From NCBI GenBank assembly GCA_012295275.1, contig CM022665.1:23560001-23624000 (forward strand): DNA of 64,000 bases, in the 5' to 3' direction. The notes under the pieces were generated by a model, which had not been told where the DNA came from, ran no database searches, and worked only from the letters and a program-made list of their open reading frames with translations. Below are positions 80 to 19,100 of the stretch, piece by piece. The position numbers were made by a program, and so were the translations under genes. The number at the start of each line of letters is the position of its first letter. Position 1 is the stretch's first letter. This stretch comes from Chrysomallon squamiferum (lineage: Eukaryota; Animalia; Mollusca).

Positions 80-3000
80 CTAAATTATATTAAAATAACA
101 GTAACAACAACAACAATAAAACATCTGTAATATTAACAACAACAACAACAATGGTATTAATAAAATATGTTCAAAGAGAATATAGAAATGGCACTGCAGG
201 TAATTGTCAAAATTGATATAAGGTTAAATATGAAAAACAAAAGAGAAGCATATTGACAGTGATATTCACTAGTCTTTAACTATGTAAAATCAACTAAAAT
301 ATTAACCAAGTAAATAAACCCTAGTGATTATTTCTTCTGTTAAATTAAAGTTTTTTTGTGGGATTTTATTTCATTTATTCAGAACACTGGACATAACAAA
401 AATATTCATAAATAATACATTTTTATCAACATAAAGAGAGAAAAACAACCTTTTTTTAAAGAAAGAAAGAGAGAAAAGAAAGAAAGAAAGAAATAACCTC
501 TTTGTTGACAGCAGTGTACTTGCAACAGTTTGTACCCAGTGGACACGCATCCTACAAATAAATGTGAACTAAAAGAAATTATTATCATCTTACAAAAATT
601 ATATTACACATTTAAATAAAGTTTATGATGAACAGTGAACAACACCTTTTCCCTTGAAGCTTTGAAAAATATCCTAAATAAAGAATGAAGAATTTGACAA
701 CATGCTGATAAAAGGACTGTGGCTACACAGTGATGATGATGATGATGATGAAATGAGTTCTCCTAAAATATCACACATACACTTAACAAATGTAATTCAG
801 ACACTAACTGAGCATCTACAAAAATATTAAATATTAAATTTAAAACATCACAGTAATGAACTAATGTAAAATATTGTTGCAGACCTTTGTAAAGGATTGA
901 AATCCTTGTAATATTGGTCTGTATCCAGTGCATCGACAAAGATTTCCTGAAGAAAGAAAAAAGTCAAATAAAATATAGGAATAAAATTGTGAAAGAGCCA
1001 TTTAGTAACAGCATATACAGAATTAAATTTACAAATCATTTTAAAATAAAGATGTCCAGCTTGGTATGTTTACCATCAAAGTAGGATTCCATCTGTTTCT
1101 GTGATGGTTGTGGGTTGTTTCTAAGAAGAGTGTACATTGACATGATGATTCCTGGGGTACAGAATCCACACTGGGTTCCATGAGCATTGGCCAGTTGTTG
1201 CTGTATCAGTAAAAAACAAAAACAATTTAATTATGATATTGATGATTTATGAAGATTGAGTTCACATATTTAATGACTGTATAAAGAATAATGCAGAGAG
1301 ATGGATTGCAAGTGAGAACATTTAGTTTTGGTGGAGTTTTGTTTTGTGTTTCTTGCTTTTTGAAATCTTTTATTAAAAAGAGAGAGAGAGAGCATACCAT
1401 TCAAATAAGTCTATTTCAAAACATACATATTTCTTACTCATTTACATCTGAGTCTATGTCTTGACATATTTTACTGTTTTTATATGACTGATATTAGTTT
1501 CTGATGGTTAGAAAAACAATTTCTAAAATGACCTGAACAGGGTGCAGTCTTGTCTTTGTACTACCAATCCCTTCCACAGTGGTGACTGACATCCCATGTA
1601 GAGCACAAACAGGTGTCAGACAGGAATTCACTGAAATGTGTCTTTGTTGTTGAGAAAAATTAAGAACACTACCTGATTTCATGAAAGCTTATAATGTAAT
1701 TTGATGGTACAGAACATACAGCTATTATAATTATCATCATTAGTAGTAGTATTAGTTTTTTTAAATGTACTTTTATTTTCAAGGACAGTCAGCTAATTTA
1801 GTAATATATAAATTTACCATATGTAAAATTCAGTTCTTGCTTTCATTACATTTTCAGATTAATTTAATCCTCATATTTGAATAAAAGAAAGATAAATAAT
1901 CGGGAAAAGGCACAAAGAAAATATGAGAAGTACAAGATAAATTATATAAAGGATACGATATTTTGTCTGTGAGTCTGTTGTATTTTGACACCATCACAGT
2001 ACAGGCTCCACATCCTCCTTCTCCACAACCAAGCTTGGCACCAGTCAAATGAAGTGAGACTAGTCAAGGAATTTGGTGGATTTTTTTAAAATAAATTAAT
2101 TATAATTTTCTAACATTTATCTGTTGCAAGGTTTGAATCTAAATAAAGAGGAATTTGCCTATAATCAGAATAATTTATTTTAGGTTAGCCTATATTATTT
2201 ATTTATTTATTTATTTATTTAAATTATAAAGACAATATATGATTGGTATTAAAAGAACCACTTTTAGCTATTGATACAGAACTGTTATTTCATCATCTGT
2301 GAAGTGATGAACTCTAAGAGAGTAAAGTCTGTCACTATAAATGCACGTATTCACACCTGCATATCGTGACCCTGGTAAAGACTAACTCACTTCTTTTTAA
2401 ACCGACAGTGTTCACCCGAGGGTGAATGAAATTCTTTTGAATGGAATGAAACTGGACGTCAGCCAAAAAAAAAAACCCATAACAAATGAACTGAGTACAT
2501 GATTTTCACTATGTGTCACTGAAAGAGCTTATTTAAAAGTGCCCTGGGATTTTTTTATATCCTTCAAGACTGAATTTTTATTAATCGACGACAAAACATT
2601 CCATCTAAGTTCATGTTAAACTAGGCTTCAATCTTTGTATCATCGTACATTATCAGACTTTATATTAACGTTTAATAAATAATGTATTGATGTGAGTTTC
2701 TAATATTTATTCAAAGATAAATCGAGTCCGGGCATATAAATACGAACATGAAGTAGATTCACTTAAAAACATCGTGCCAGTGAATTTAATATGGATTAAT
2801 TGTCAAATAATGGCTGAATGAATTAATTAATGTTTAACGATATCCCAGTTTAAATATTTAACGTTTTTCACAATATAGTAGCTAAATAATCGTACATGGA
2901 CTCCGGTCGAAGATCATAACTAATATATGGGTTAAGTAAATCACTATTTTTAATGCTCTTAAACACATCGTGTAGATCCATATGAAAAGAACGTGATCAT

Positions 3001-16100: not shown

Positions 16101-19100
16101 CAACATCCTGTGCGATTTCTTGAGGCAAGATTTTTCTGTCGCGGACAATCAAGTACCTTCACAAATCATTTCTTTCCTTGTTTATACCATTAAATTAAGG
16201 AGTTTTTTTTTATTTCCTACAACCATTGTGAAGTTACATTTTACATAATATATTAACCATTGATACATGAAAGTAGGTAGCGGCAGCCTAAATTTTAATA
16301 TATGTATATGTTTGTATGTACATGTGTGTGTGTGTGTGTGTGTGTGTGTGTGTGTGTGTGTGTATTTGTTAGTTAAACATAACTTCTGAATACAAACTGT
16401 TTTTGAGATGCGACGTTTTGAATACTTTTATTCCCGCCCTGCTACATATCATTAGAAAGCTCATTTAATTAGCTTTCCAACGGTGCTAGAAACAGCCATT
16501 TACCATTTTAAAAACCAGAGTTAATCGCCGCGCAAAATTTCAAATGGTTCGTTTTTAAATTTTGGTTTCCATACAGTTCATAAGATTGCTTTAATATTTT
16601 GCTTTAATTTTTATGTTTCAGATAGAAGAAAAGAACGCAGACCCTGATGAATCACTGCTGCAGTATCTTAGAAATAAACGTATCCTTTTTTTTTCTTATA
16701 TATTTTATTGTTTTTGCCTTCTTTTTGGATTGTTAGTATTATTATAGTTGTTATTCGTGTTGTTACTGTCATTATTATTAATACCGTTGTTATTGTTATT
16801 GTAACTATTATTGTTGATGTTTCTGTTATTGTTGTTGTTATTTTCATTAGTTCTGTTAATATTATTATCATTATTATTATCGTTGTTGTTGTTATTGATT
16901 CTATTATTATTATTGTTGTTGTTGTTGTTGTTGTTGTTATTGTTATCTTTATTATTGCTGTTACTGTTGAAGTTTCTCTTCTTTTTTTTATCGTCTGCAT
17001 TTTCTTTTTCTTTTATTAGTTATATTGTTTTAGCCAACCTAAACCATCATAAAGTTGTAAGTCCCAAATGACATCTCTGTCCCTAACATTTACATATATA
17101 GACATGATATATTTTTAAAATTCCTTGACTAGTCTCAGTTCGTTTGACTGGTGCCAAGCTTGGTTGTGGAGAAGGAGGATGTGGAGCCTGTACTGTGATG
17201 GTGTCAGAATACGACAGACTCACAGACAAAATATCGTATCCTTACTACATTACTTTTTCTCATATGTACTGTTTGCTTGATACATTATTTATTATTTATA
17301 CCATTCCTTTGATCTGTAATATAAAAACAACAAATCTATGCCCTTCTATAAAACAAATTATCATATAACTTCTTGATTAATTCATTGCCTGTTAAAAGAG
17401 TCAAAGATCACATTTCTGGTCAGTGTTTCTTGTGTATAATATTATGCTGTTATACAGTGAGAGTGGTGCTTGGAGTTACTGTATGTAGTTTTCTCTTTCA
17501 TAACATACTAAAATAAGATGATGAGGCCATATAGTAATAACTATTAGTGATACAGTGTATTGAATTATTGTTTAGTATTCATTCATTCATTTTATTTTTT
17601 CTCTTATTTTAAATTATTTTAATTTTATTTTTATTTTTTTATTCATTTCTGTCTATTTTCTCATCACTAACATCCTTCTATCATTCTTTCTGTTCATGAT
17701 CTTGCTGTTGCTATTATAACTACTGCATTAAATTATTAATCATCTTTTGCTAGTATTGCTGCTGTGATGCTGTTACTACTATTATTATAATTATTAAACT
17801 ACTGCTACTGCTGCTAATACATCTGCTACGGCAACTCTTACTAAAAATATTAATACATACTATTGCATCTGCAATTACTGTTTATGCTACTACAGCTGTT
17901 GTTATGGCTGGTACAACTTTTACTATTATTGTTGTTATTTTTGTGTAACAACCATCATAACATTCAAATACAACAATTGAGAAAATGTCAAGGTAAAATC
18001 ATAAAATGGTGTCCTCATTACTTTCCACATTTTTGCTGTTAATTTGTTTCCATATTCTAGTATATACTGTAGTCGAAAAAATAAAACCAAAAAAAAACAT
18101 TATAAAGAATTAAATTGTACACAGCAGTTGTATGGTGTTTCCAAAATTTGCAGGTAATTAAATGCATGGAATATAGTAGATAATGTAAAACTGTTAACAT
18201 ATTTTACTTATTTTATTTTGAGTAATTAAGTTGAAAGTACATAACAAAACTAGCAAATGTGAAGCCAACATACATGAATAAATAAGTAAAATAAAATTTG
18301 TTCACTATTGATTAATTATTGATTAGAGTAATAAAAGGAGAGAATGTAAATAAAAGTAAAAATAGAGTTTTCCAGGTAAAAATAATTTAGTAAAAAATAG
18401 AAATTAGAAATGTTTTTTGTTGAAATGTCCTTTTTTTCTCAACAACAAAGACACATTTCAGTGAATTCCTGTCTGACGCCTGTTTGTGCTCTACATGGGA
18501 TGTCAGTCACCACTGTGGAAGGGATTGGTAGTACAAAGACAAGACTGCACCCTGTTCAGGTCATTTTAGAAATTGTTTTTCTAACCATCAGAAACTAATA
18601 TCAGTCATATAAAAACAGTAAAATATGTCAAGACATAGACTCAGATGTAAATGAGTAAGAAATATGTATGATTTGAAACAGACTCATTTGAATGGTATGC
18701 CTCTCTCTCTCTCTCTCTCTCTCTCTCTCTCTCTCTCTCTCTCTCTCTCTCTCTCTCTCTCTCTCTCTCTCTCTCTCTCTCTCTCTCTCTCTCTCTCTCT
18801 CTCTTGTTTTAATAAAAGATTTCAAAAAGCAAAAAACACAAAACAAAACTCCACCAAAACTAAAACAATGTTCTCACTTGCAATCCACCTCTCTGCATTA
18901 TTCTTTATATAGTCATTAAATATAATGTGAACTTAATCTTCATAAATAATCATTATCATAATTAAGTTGTTTTTGTTTTTTACTGATACAGCAACAACTG
19001 GCCAATGCTCATGGAACCCAGTGTGGATTCTGTACTCCAGGAATCATCATGTCAATGTACACTCTTCTTAGAAACAACCCACAACCATCACAGAAACAGA

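What the first reader, a model, noticed from the sequence alone, without database searches (positions are those of the whole stretch)
2054..17138. Same U12 intron is AT-AC in one XDH paralog and GT-AG in its head-to-head neighbour
Seen in sequence: intron 2 of XDH-B (minus strand, 3163->2054) reads C|ATATCCTTTT...AATTCCTTGACTAGTCTCAC|TT. Intron 2 of XDH-A (16680-17138) reads C|GTATCCTTTT...AATTCCTTGACTAGTCTCAG|TT. Position, phase and flanking exon lengths (58/97 nt) are the same. The last 20 nt of the two introns and exon 3 are otherwise near-identical, yet the final base differs (C versus G) in register with the first base (A versus G), which lies 459 or 1110 nt away in non-alignable sequence. 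Established: U12 introns occur as AT-AC and GT-AG subtypes, switch between them over evolution, and their terminal bases interact in the second splicing step; XDH/AOX genes are known U12 carriers. Inference: this is a subtype switch visible within one locus, with the terminal pair kept matched despite local homogenisation. It is a natural test of the intermediate states (AT-AG, GT-AC) and could give the paralogs different splicing-limited expression.
Basis: partly seen in the sequence, partly recalled or inferred. Interest (0 to 1): 0.85.

Follow-up and report, generated by a model that had tools for sequence, protein, structure and literature searches.

The report
Minor intron switched backwards to AT-AC
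Two back-to-back xanthine dehydrogenase genes, likely of a snail, carry the same rare minor-spliceosome intron with different ends, AT-AC in one (spliced at exactly those ends in RNA) and GT-AG in the other; the AT-AC form is likely the newer one, the reverse of the usually described direction, and its last base differs although the DNA around it was likely copied between the two genes.

Summary
XDH-B intron 2 (3163→2054) is U12-type AT-AC and XDH-A intron 2 (16680-17138) is U12-type GT-AG, at the same position and phase. RNA contigs of 2 of 2 RNA runs (one study) join B's exons exactly at AT..AC. Other DNA runs agree with both B ends and with A's acceptor; A's donor and A's splicing were not verified.

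Direction: the same intron ends in AG in 28 of 28 outgroup animal XDH/AOX loci (16 clusters), and 0 of 12 visible donors are AT. B is therefore likely the derived copy, GT-AG→AT-AC, whereas the reviews I read describe AT-AC→GT-AG.

Exon 3 plus its two flanking U12 signals forms a 126-nt island with 4 differences and none synonymous, against 5 of about 12 synonymous sites in exon 2. This points to gene conversion. One of the 4 differences is the intron's last base. Selection against hybrid ends likely keeps it, but a recent switch after the last conversion also fits.

Intron 3 is U12-type in both genes, as published for XDH. Subtype switches are known; the polarised reverse direction inside a converting pair is a useful variant, not a new system.

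The parts
7719..7766 (-). XDH-B coding exon 1 (48 nt, GT donor)
   Evidence: tblastn; model; RNA loose end at 3221 matches its last 30 letters
3164..3221 (-). XDH-B exon 2 (58 nt)
   Evidence: RNA contigs
2054..3163 (-). XDH-B intron 2, U12-type AT-AC, 1110 nt, phase 1; the likely derived subtype
   Evidence: exact RNA joint and DNA contigs; outgroups
2063..2071 (-). U12 branch-point motif TTCCTTGAC of B intron 2; predicted branch A at -11
   Evidence: consensus from Alioto
1957..2053 (-). XDH-B exon 3 (97 nt, part of the 2Fe-2S domain)
   Evidence: Pfam Fer2
1642..1956 (-). XDH-B intron 3, U12-type donor GTATCCTTT, GT-AG, 315 nt
   Evidence: RNA joint 1641/1957 in X6 and X7
1..1659 (-). XDH-B exons 4-8 with introns; near-identical to A; the gene runs off the window
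   Evidence: 96.5-98% identity to 18433-20170; 23 mismatches; 211 codons without a stop over exons 1-8
1949..2074 (-). B side of the 126-nt homogenised island (intron 2 from -21, exon 3, first 8 nt of intron 3)
   Evidence: 4 differences to A
10138..10182 (+). Extra B-like exon 1 with GTAAGT donor; alternative first exon of A or remnant of a third copy
   Evidence: tblastn; 32 of 34 nt identical to the end of B exon 1 and its donor; use not tested
15131..15175 (+). XDH-A coding exon 1
16622..16679 (+). XDH-A exon 2 (58 nt)
16680..17138 (+). XDH-A intron 2, U12-type GT-AG, 459 nt, phase 1; the likely ancestral subtype
   Evidence: acceptor G in 4 of 4 runs; donor seen in the window only
17121..17129 (+). 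U12 branch-point motif TTCCTTGAC of A intron 2
17139..17235 (+). XDH-A exon 3 (97 nt)
17118..17243 (+). A side of the 126-nt homogenised island; differences at 17138, 17142, 17207, 17213
17236..18450 (+). XDH-A intron 3, U12-type donor GTATCCTTA, GT-AG, 1215 nt
15131..37293 (+). XDH-A whole coding span: 35 exons, about 1307 aa, no internal stop
   Evidence: heuristic model (some junctions approximate); 75% identical to Gigantopelta aegis XDH P0004; Pfam MoCoBD_2

Best explanation
XDH-B intron 2 has minor-spliceosome (U12-type) signals with AT-AC ends and is spliced at exactly those ends, while the same intron in the neighbouring XDH-A has GT-AG ends; B's AT-AC likely arose from the ancestral GT-AG, and selection against mismatched ends likely keeps B's last base different although gene conversion likely keeps copying the surrounding exon between the two genes. 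Steps: (1) Shown: same position and phase, full U12 donor and branch motifs, exact RNA junction for B. (2) Inferred from outgroups: GT-AG is ancestral, so B changed both ends (G to A at +1, G to C at -1). (3) Inferred from published intermediates: the route was GT-AG to AT-AG to AT-AC, because AT-AG occurs naturally, GT-AC is absent from the published table, and the acceptor keeps its distance from the branch point. (4) Inferred: the inverted copies exchange sequence wherever homology survives. The conserved branch point of intron 2 and the conserved donor of intron 3 mark the island's edges, so exon 3 and the spacer are homogenised while the intron interiors are not. (5) Inferred, weakest: tracts that carry the -1 base without the distant +1 base make AT-AG in B or GT-AC in A and are purged or compensated, so tracts that spare -1 survive.
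For: Exact AT..AC joint in RNA contigs of X6 and X7, absent from both DNA runs; B ends agree in X3 (2054) and X1 (3163). A's G in 4 of 4 runs. Outgroups: AG in 28 of 28 animal loci (16 clusters at 90% exon-3 identity) with the last base left free in the search pattern; donors beside a recognisable exon 2 are 11 GT, 1 GC, 0 AT of 12. A diverged paralog in the same runs also appears to end in AG (loose end; last letters deduced from the alignment start). AOX1 introns 2 and 3 are listed as GT-AG in Lin et al. 2010, table S3. Conversion: 0 of about 22 synonymous sites differ in exon 3 against 5 of about 12 in exon 2 (Fisher p 0.003); -21..-2 is 20 of 20 identical, while 351 outgroup pairs under 85% exon-3 identity average 6.3 and reach at most 14. 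In X1 and X5 the shared contig begins exactly at exon 3 base +1, so the non-A copy has A's letter at +4 yet still differs at -1. AT-AG and GT-AC are described as disfavoured (PMC3584512); AT-AG has 20 natural cases and GT-AC no row among 66 (PMC1557818).
Against: Step 5 rests on one site. It is 1 of 4 differences in 126 nt, and the other three are G/A changes, two at CpG, that could be simple new mutations. The shared +4 letter in X1 and X5 may be the state left by an older conversion rather than a new tract end. To homogenise -21..-2 a tract must have crossed -1 at least once, which needs patchy repair or a later re-fixation of C; neither is shown. In X4 the contig runs through -1 with G and no AC branch is listed; the depth test was undecided. 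A's donor and A's splicing are unverified. The outgroups are distant animals of uncertain identity; no close relative's genomic intron was available. B's donor is confirmed by one run only, X1, the best holder and so a possible source of the window, although it differs from the window at other places.
Confidence: 0.6

Rival explanations
1. Same derived switch, but late. B was GT-AG or a tolerated AT-AG while the island was homogenised, and the C at -1 arose after the last conversion that crossed it. The difference is then a recent mutation, probably compensatory, and nothing has resisted conversion.
For: Explains the 20 of 20 identity on the intron side without patchy repair. AT-AG is conserved between human and mouse in 4 genes of Sheth's table 3. 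A further copy that joins the island at the same boundary has AG. No AC branch is listed in X4.
Against: The island has 0 synonymous differences and the adjoining block 23 mismatches in about 1.7 kb, so the time window for one specific transversion is short, and shorter still if both ends must change in it. C at -1 is present in the window, X3 and X1, and a non-G letter in X5, across two studies.
Confidence: 0.28
2. AT-AC was already ancestral in this lineage's XDH cluster, and A (with copies C and D) switched in the textbook direction to GT-AG.
For: Reviews describe switches as AT-AC to GT-AG. No close relative's intron was seen.
Against: Needs an earlier GT-AG to AT-AC switch anyway, because 28 of 28 outgroups end in AG, plus a reversal in A, in a second G-bearing copy and in the diverged paralog.
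Confidence: 0.07
3. The difference, or the duplicated block, is an assembly artefact, or B is a dead fragment.
For: Exons 4-8 and their introns are 96.5-98% identical between the copies; B's 3' part lies outside the window and no genome is held.
Against: B- and A-specific contigs with their own terminal bases occur in runs of three studies; B exons 1-5 are joined in RNA; A's frame is intact.
Confidence: 0.03

Closest known systems
U12-type introns 2 and 3 of the XDH/AOX family (Lin et al. 2010, PMC2831892, supplement example 3, text read; figure S2 is an image, not seen)
   Same: Same two adjacent introns around exon 3, both U12-type; paralogs differ in intron state.
   Different: The changes told there are U12 to U2 (mammalian AOX1 intron 3, zebrafish AOX1, pufferfish XDH, Ciona, C. 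elegans). The text mentions no AT-AC form. Here intron 2 stays U12 and becomes AT-AC.
U12 subtype switching (Burge et al. 1998, not held, known only as cited; Lin et al. 2010 main text passages; Turunen et al. 2012, PMC3584512, section 19)
   Same: Orthologous-position U12 introns that differ in AT-AC versus GT-AG; 36 clusters with both subtypes in U12DB; described as rare.
   Different: The passages read name the direction AT-AC to GT-AG and compare species. Here the polarity is GT-AG to AT-AC, between neighbouring paralogs that still exchange sequence up to the switched base.
Non-canonical U12 intermediates between human and mouse (Sheth et al. 2006, PMC1557818, tables 2-3 and passages)
   Same: One-base steps such as AT-AG versus GT-AG (XPO4, ACTR10, SCN10A) or AT-AG versus AT-AC (Cacna1h) are the predicted route.
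   Different: Those are single steps between species; here both end points of the two-step path sit 13.5 kb apart in one genome, and no intermediate was shown.
A-type versus G-type minor introns and CENATAC (de Wolf et al. 2021, PMC8280824, passages)
   Same: B intron 2 is A-type and A intron 2 is G-type.
   Different: Lower efficiency and CENATAC dependence of A-type introns were shown in human cells; nothing of the kind was tested for this animal.

Membership tests
U12-type (minor) intron | 5' splice site RTATCCTTT | tested here: met
   Exact match in B (A form) and A (G form); consensus from PMC1635337
U12-type (minor) intron | Branch point TTCCTTRAY close to the 3' end | tested here: met
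   TTCCTTGAC in both; predicted branch A at -11; optimum 11-13 nt per PMC3584512
U12-type (minor) intron | No polypyrimidine tract before the 3' splice site | tested here: met
   Read from the sequence: a 7-nt mixed spacer follows the branch motif; A-rich upstream in B
U12-type (minor) intron | Removed at the predicted ends in vivo (XDH-B) | tested here: met
   RNA contigs of X6 and X7 skip 2054-3163 exactly; the 2-letter slide allowed would give non-canonical ends
U12-type (minor) intron | Removed at the predicted ends in vivo (XDH-A) | tested here: inconclusive
U12-type (minor) intron | Dependence on U11/U12/U6atac; intronIC score | not testable with these tools
   Needs a knock-down or a reporter; no intronIC run was possible
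U12 subtype switch | Homologous position and phase, both U12-type, different terminal pairs | tested here: met
   58/97-nt exons, phase 1
U12 subtype switch | Textbook direction AT-AC to GT-AG | tested here: not met
   28 of 28 outgroup acceptors AG, 0 of 12 donors AT: direction is likely GT-AG to AT-AC
U12 subtype switch | Intermediate (AT-AG or GT-AC) allele | tested here: inconclusive
   X4 lists no AC branch; depth test undecided; donor of the third copy unseen
Gene conversion between paralogs | Mosaic identity beyond what selection explains | tested here: met
   Synonymous differences 0 of about 22 versus 5 of about 12, p 0.003; spacer control on outgroup pairs
Gene conversion between paralogs | Shared polymorphism or a defined donor and tract | tested here: inconclusive
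   The +4 letter is shared in X1 and X5 and differs in X2, X3, X6, X7; may also be a CpG change
Xanthine dehydrogenase / aldehyde oxidase family | 2Fe-2S, FAD and molybdopterin domains in one chain of about 1330 aa | tested here: met
   Fer2 and MoCoBD_2; motifs and 75% identity over the full length to P0004; FAD domain by that alignment only
Xanthine dehydrogenase / aldehyde oxidase family | Xanthine rather than aldehyde specificity | not tested
   Name taken from the nearest annotated proteins

The most novel reading that the evidence does not exclude
Gene conversion between the inverted XDH copies keeps generating hybrid-ended minor introns (AT-AG in B, GT-AC in A) that selection removes, and some still segregate (the AG-only graph of X4, or the third copy). 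The locus would be a live, two-way subtype switch in which the fitness cost of each intermediate can be read from population haplotypes, with the expressed copy having moved away from the U2 route onto the slower A-type class.
Probability: 0.25. Interest if true: 0.72.

Novelty: new variant of a known kind. Interest (0 to 1): 0.5.

Why it matters
Subtype switching needs two changes hundreds of bases apart and is described as rare and as running AT-AC to GT-AG, the first step towards loss of a minor intron. A spliced, polarised case in the other direction would show that the step is reversible and that AT-AC introns are not only relics. Conversion between the copies can move the last base without the first, so the locus should produce the intermediates that are otherwise only inferred, and their cost becomes measurable from phased population reads and a four-way minigene. 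Human data (PMC8280824) say A-type introns splice less efficiently and depend on CENATAC, which gives a concrete, untested way for the two paralogs to differ in regulation.

Tried and rejected
No genome is held, so B's 3' part and other copies could not be read.

Upstream TAG as B's acceptor: it ends 4 nt after the branch A and RNA contigs use the AC; minor use is not excluded by contigs. U2-type AT-AC intron: rejected, the donor has C at +5 and a full U12 branch motif. Retrocopy as source of the joint: rejected, neither DNA run shows it.

L013, the only AC among the 29 scan hits, was dropped before counting: it reads through as an uninterrupted frame. L027's exon-2 hit (score 35, non-GT donor) was not counted; 16 of 28 loci gave no usable donor. 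Assigning outgroup loci to animal groups by best hit gave near-ties and was not used.

Expression of A: no A-type letters in X6 or X7, which is no evidence of silence. Intron-retention levels from contig depth were not used. The X4 depth test gave opposite answers with different normalisers. A search for remnants of exons 2-3 behind the extra exon 1 found none.

Literature: searches for xanthine dehydrogenase + U12 + AT-AC + intron, XDH/AOX1/minor intron/U12 (21), xanthine dehydrogenase + U12-type (30), 'GT-AG to AT-AC' + U12 (36), aldehyde oxidase + intron + AT-AC (42), gene conversion + U12 + paralog + AT-AC (45) and xanthine dehydrogenase + AT-AC (58) listed no paper whose title or abstract start describes this case; most hits were not opened. 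Burge 1998, Wu and Krainer 1997 and 1999, Levine and Durbin 2001 and a recalled id for Dietrich 2005 are not held. I recall, unverified, that an insect XDH intron was listed as AT-AC in that older literature; if so, an AT-AC form in this family is not new. Earlier scan notes held nothing on this locus.
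Full report
Observation. 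The letters and coordinates are as stated. XDH-B lies on the minus strand (ATG 7766) and XDH-A on the plus strand (ATG 15131). Intron 2 lies between a 58-nt and a 97-nt exon in phase 1 in both. B reads ATATCCTTT...TTCCTTGAC-TAGTCTC-AC over 1110 nt; A reads GTATCCTTT...TTCCTTGAC-TAGTCTC-AG over 459 nt. Both match the U12 consensus of Alioto (PMC1635337, passages). Each motif occurs only 5 times in 128,000 strand-bases. The nearest named proteins are Gigantopelta aegis XDH-like proteins, 88-90% identical over exon 5, so the animal is likely a related gastropod. A models as 35 exons and 1307 aa without a stop, 75% identical to P0004 (junctions chosen heuristically). B's first 8 exons give 211 codons without a stop and the gene leaves the window. 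No genome is held.

Independent data. Nine runs from three studies hold B's stretch; I laid seven of them, four per call, X1 twice. On B, RNA contigs of X6 and X7 (one study) join exon 2 to exon 3 by skipping exactly 1110 nt with AT..AC ends and no other letters. They also join exon 1, and exon 3 to exon 4 (GT..AG). The DNA runs X1 and X3 do not show the intron-2 joint. An X3 contig over 1630-2187 has 7 differences, all accounted for at other places, so 2054 agrees. An X1 contig over 3082-3276 has none, so 3163 agrees; X3 does not cover the donor. On A, A-specific contigs carry G at 17138 in X1, X2, X4 and X5, though none extends 31 letters on both sides. No A-type exon 3 appeared in the two RNA runs, which contigs cannot turn into evidence of silence.

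Polarity. A scan of metagenome contigs for a U12 branch motif in front of XDH exon 3, with the last intron base left free, gave 29 loci. One (L013) is an uninterrupted reading frame and was dropped. The other 28, in 16 clusters at 90% exon-3 identity (14 at 85%, 18 at 95%), all end in AG. Exon 2 was recognisable in 12 of 28: 11 donors are GT, 1 is GC, none is AT. In the window's own species a second G-bearing sequence joins the island at 17118 in X1, X2 and X4 but not X5. A paralog with 17 differences in 92 letters also appears to end in AG and has a U12 donor at intron 3. Lin et al. (PMC2831892, supplement text read whole, figures not visible) report XDH introns 2 and 3 as ancestrally U12, list zebrafish AOX1 introns 2 and 3 as GT-AG, and describe only U12-to-U2 changes. 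GT-AG is thus likely ancestral and B's AT-AC derived. The limit is that these outgroups are distant and unassigned.

Homogenisation. Identity between A and B is a mosaic. Exon 2 differs at 10 of 58 sites (5 of about 12 synonymous) and the interiors of introns 2 and 3 do not align. A 126-nt island from intron 2 position -21 to intron 3 position +8 differs at 4 sites. The block from the intron 3 branch region onward is 96.5-98% identical, introns included. Exon 3 has 0 of about 22 synonymous differences (Fisher p 0.003 against exon 2). The 20 of 20 identity at -21..-2 exceeds what splice-signal selection gives: 351 outgroup pairs under 85% exon identity average 6.3 and reach 14, and several pairs at 93-96% share only 8-13, though others reach 17-18. 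Gene conversion between inverted copies, bounded where homology ends at the U12 signals, is the likely cause. The 4 surviving differences are the intron's last base and three amino-acid changes. In X1 and X5 the shared contig starts exactly at exon base +1, so the +4 difference is gone while -1 still differs; for X1 this follows from matching contigs. In X2 the shared contig starts at +5, as in the window. In X4 it runs through -1 with G and no AC branch is listed; predicted depths for a dropped link versus an all-G state were 200/228, 174/199, 224/255 and 114/130 against 200 observed, so this is undecided.

Mechanism. The likely path is GT-AG to AT-AG to AT-AC. Sheth et al. (PMC1557818, passages and tables) list 20 AT-AG and no GT-AC among 66 non-canonical U12 introns and propose AT-AG as the intermediate. 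Turunen et al. (PMC3584512, passages and section 19) call both hybrids disfavoured and switches rare. In B no other AG or AC lies at a usable distance and frame from the branch A: the TAG ends 4 nt after it and the next AC is 20 nt away and out of frame. An AT-AG stage would therefore have kept the junction. Whether -1 then resisted conversion (0.6) or changed after the last tract that crossed it (0.28) cannot be told from one site. The first needs patchy repair or re-fixation of C; the second needs a specific transversion in a short time.

Comparison and novelty. Subtype switches are known: 36 U12DB clusters hold both subtypes, none was seen in insects (PMC3291851, passages), and the direction named in the passages I read is AT-AC to GT-AG. 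Passages of PMC10639083, PMC7367187, PMC11347168, PMC2846911 and PMC8767276 gave no such paralog case. Seven targeted searches listed none, but the key papers of 1997-2005 are not held, and I recall without proof an insect AT-AC XDH intron in them. This is a new variant of a known kind. De Wolf et al. (PMC8280824, passages) show that A-type introns splice less efficiently and depend on CENATAC in human cells, which makes the regulatory idea testable; nothing here tests it.

Verdict. Observation confirmed; interpretation partly supported and extended by the polarity. Interest 0.5, or about 0.7 if hybrids prove to be made and purged.

Noticed in passing
window 1642-1956 (-) and 17236-18450 (+): Intron 3 of both genes also has a U12 donor (GTATCCTT), so exon 3 is flanked by two minor introns. 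Among 28 outgroup loci, 15 keep this donor, 12 have another GT donor, mostly U2-like, and 1 has no intron there.
   Followed up: yes
window 10138-10182 (+): A third, B-like exon 1 with a GTAAGT donor, 2.4 kb from B's ATG and 5 kb upstream of A's; an alternative first exon or the remnant of a third copy. No exon 2-3 remnant follows it.
   Followed up: partly
runs X1, X2, X4 laid on window 17022-17282: A second sequence with G at -1 joins the island at 17118, the same boundary as B; a likely third near-identical copy whose donor is unseen. Not seen in X5.
   Followed up: partly
runs X1, X4, X5 laid on window 17136-17227: A diverged XDH paralog (17 differences in 92 letters) with a variant branch motif, an apparent AG acceptor and a U12 donor at intron 3.
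   Followed up: partly
window 2050 / 17142, 1985 / 17207, 1979 / 17213: All three exon 3 differences between A and B change the amino acid (R/H, E/K, D/N) and none is synonymous; the R/H site varies among runs. His is shared with Gigantopelta proteins P0002 and P0004.
   Followed up: partly
L005, donor 1788 nt upstream of exon 3: The same intron 2 has a GC-AG U12 form (GCATCCTTT) in one outgroup locus.
   Followed up: no
window 35648-35888 (+): Intron 32 of XDH-A begins GTATCTTCA, one change from the U12 donor; class not examined.
   Followed up: no
window 13500-14420 (-): Broken reading frames between the two genes that look to me like a decayed transposase; label recalled, not confirmed by a family search.
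   Followed up: no
window 46491-47672 (+): A 393-codon open frame with an N-terminal CARD domain (PF00619, E 2e-06) followed by what looks like a coiled-coil region.
   Followed up: partly
proteins P0003 and P0005: Two annotated Gigantopelta XDH-like proteins start inside or after exon 3 and lack the first 2Fe-2S domain; possibly gene-model trouble at the U12 introns.
   Followed up: no
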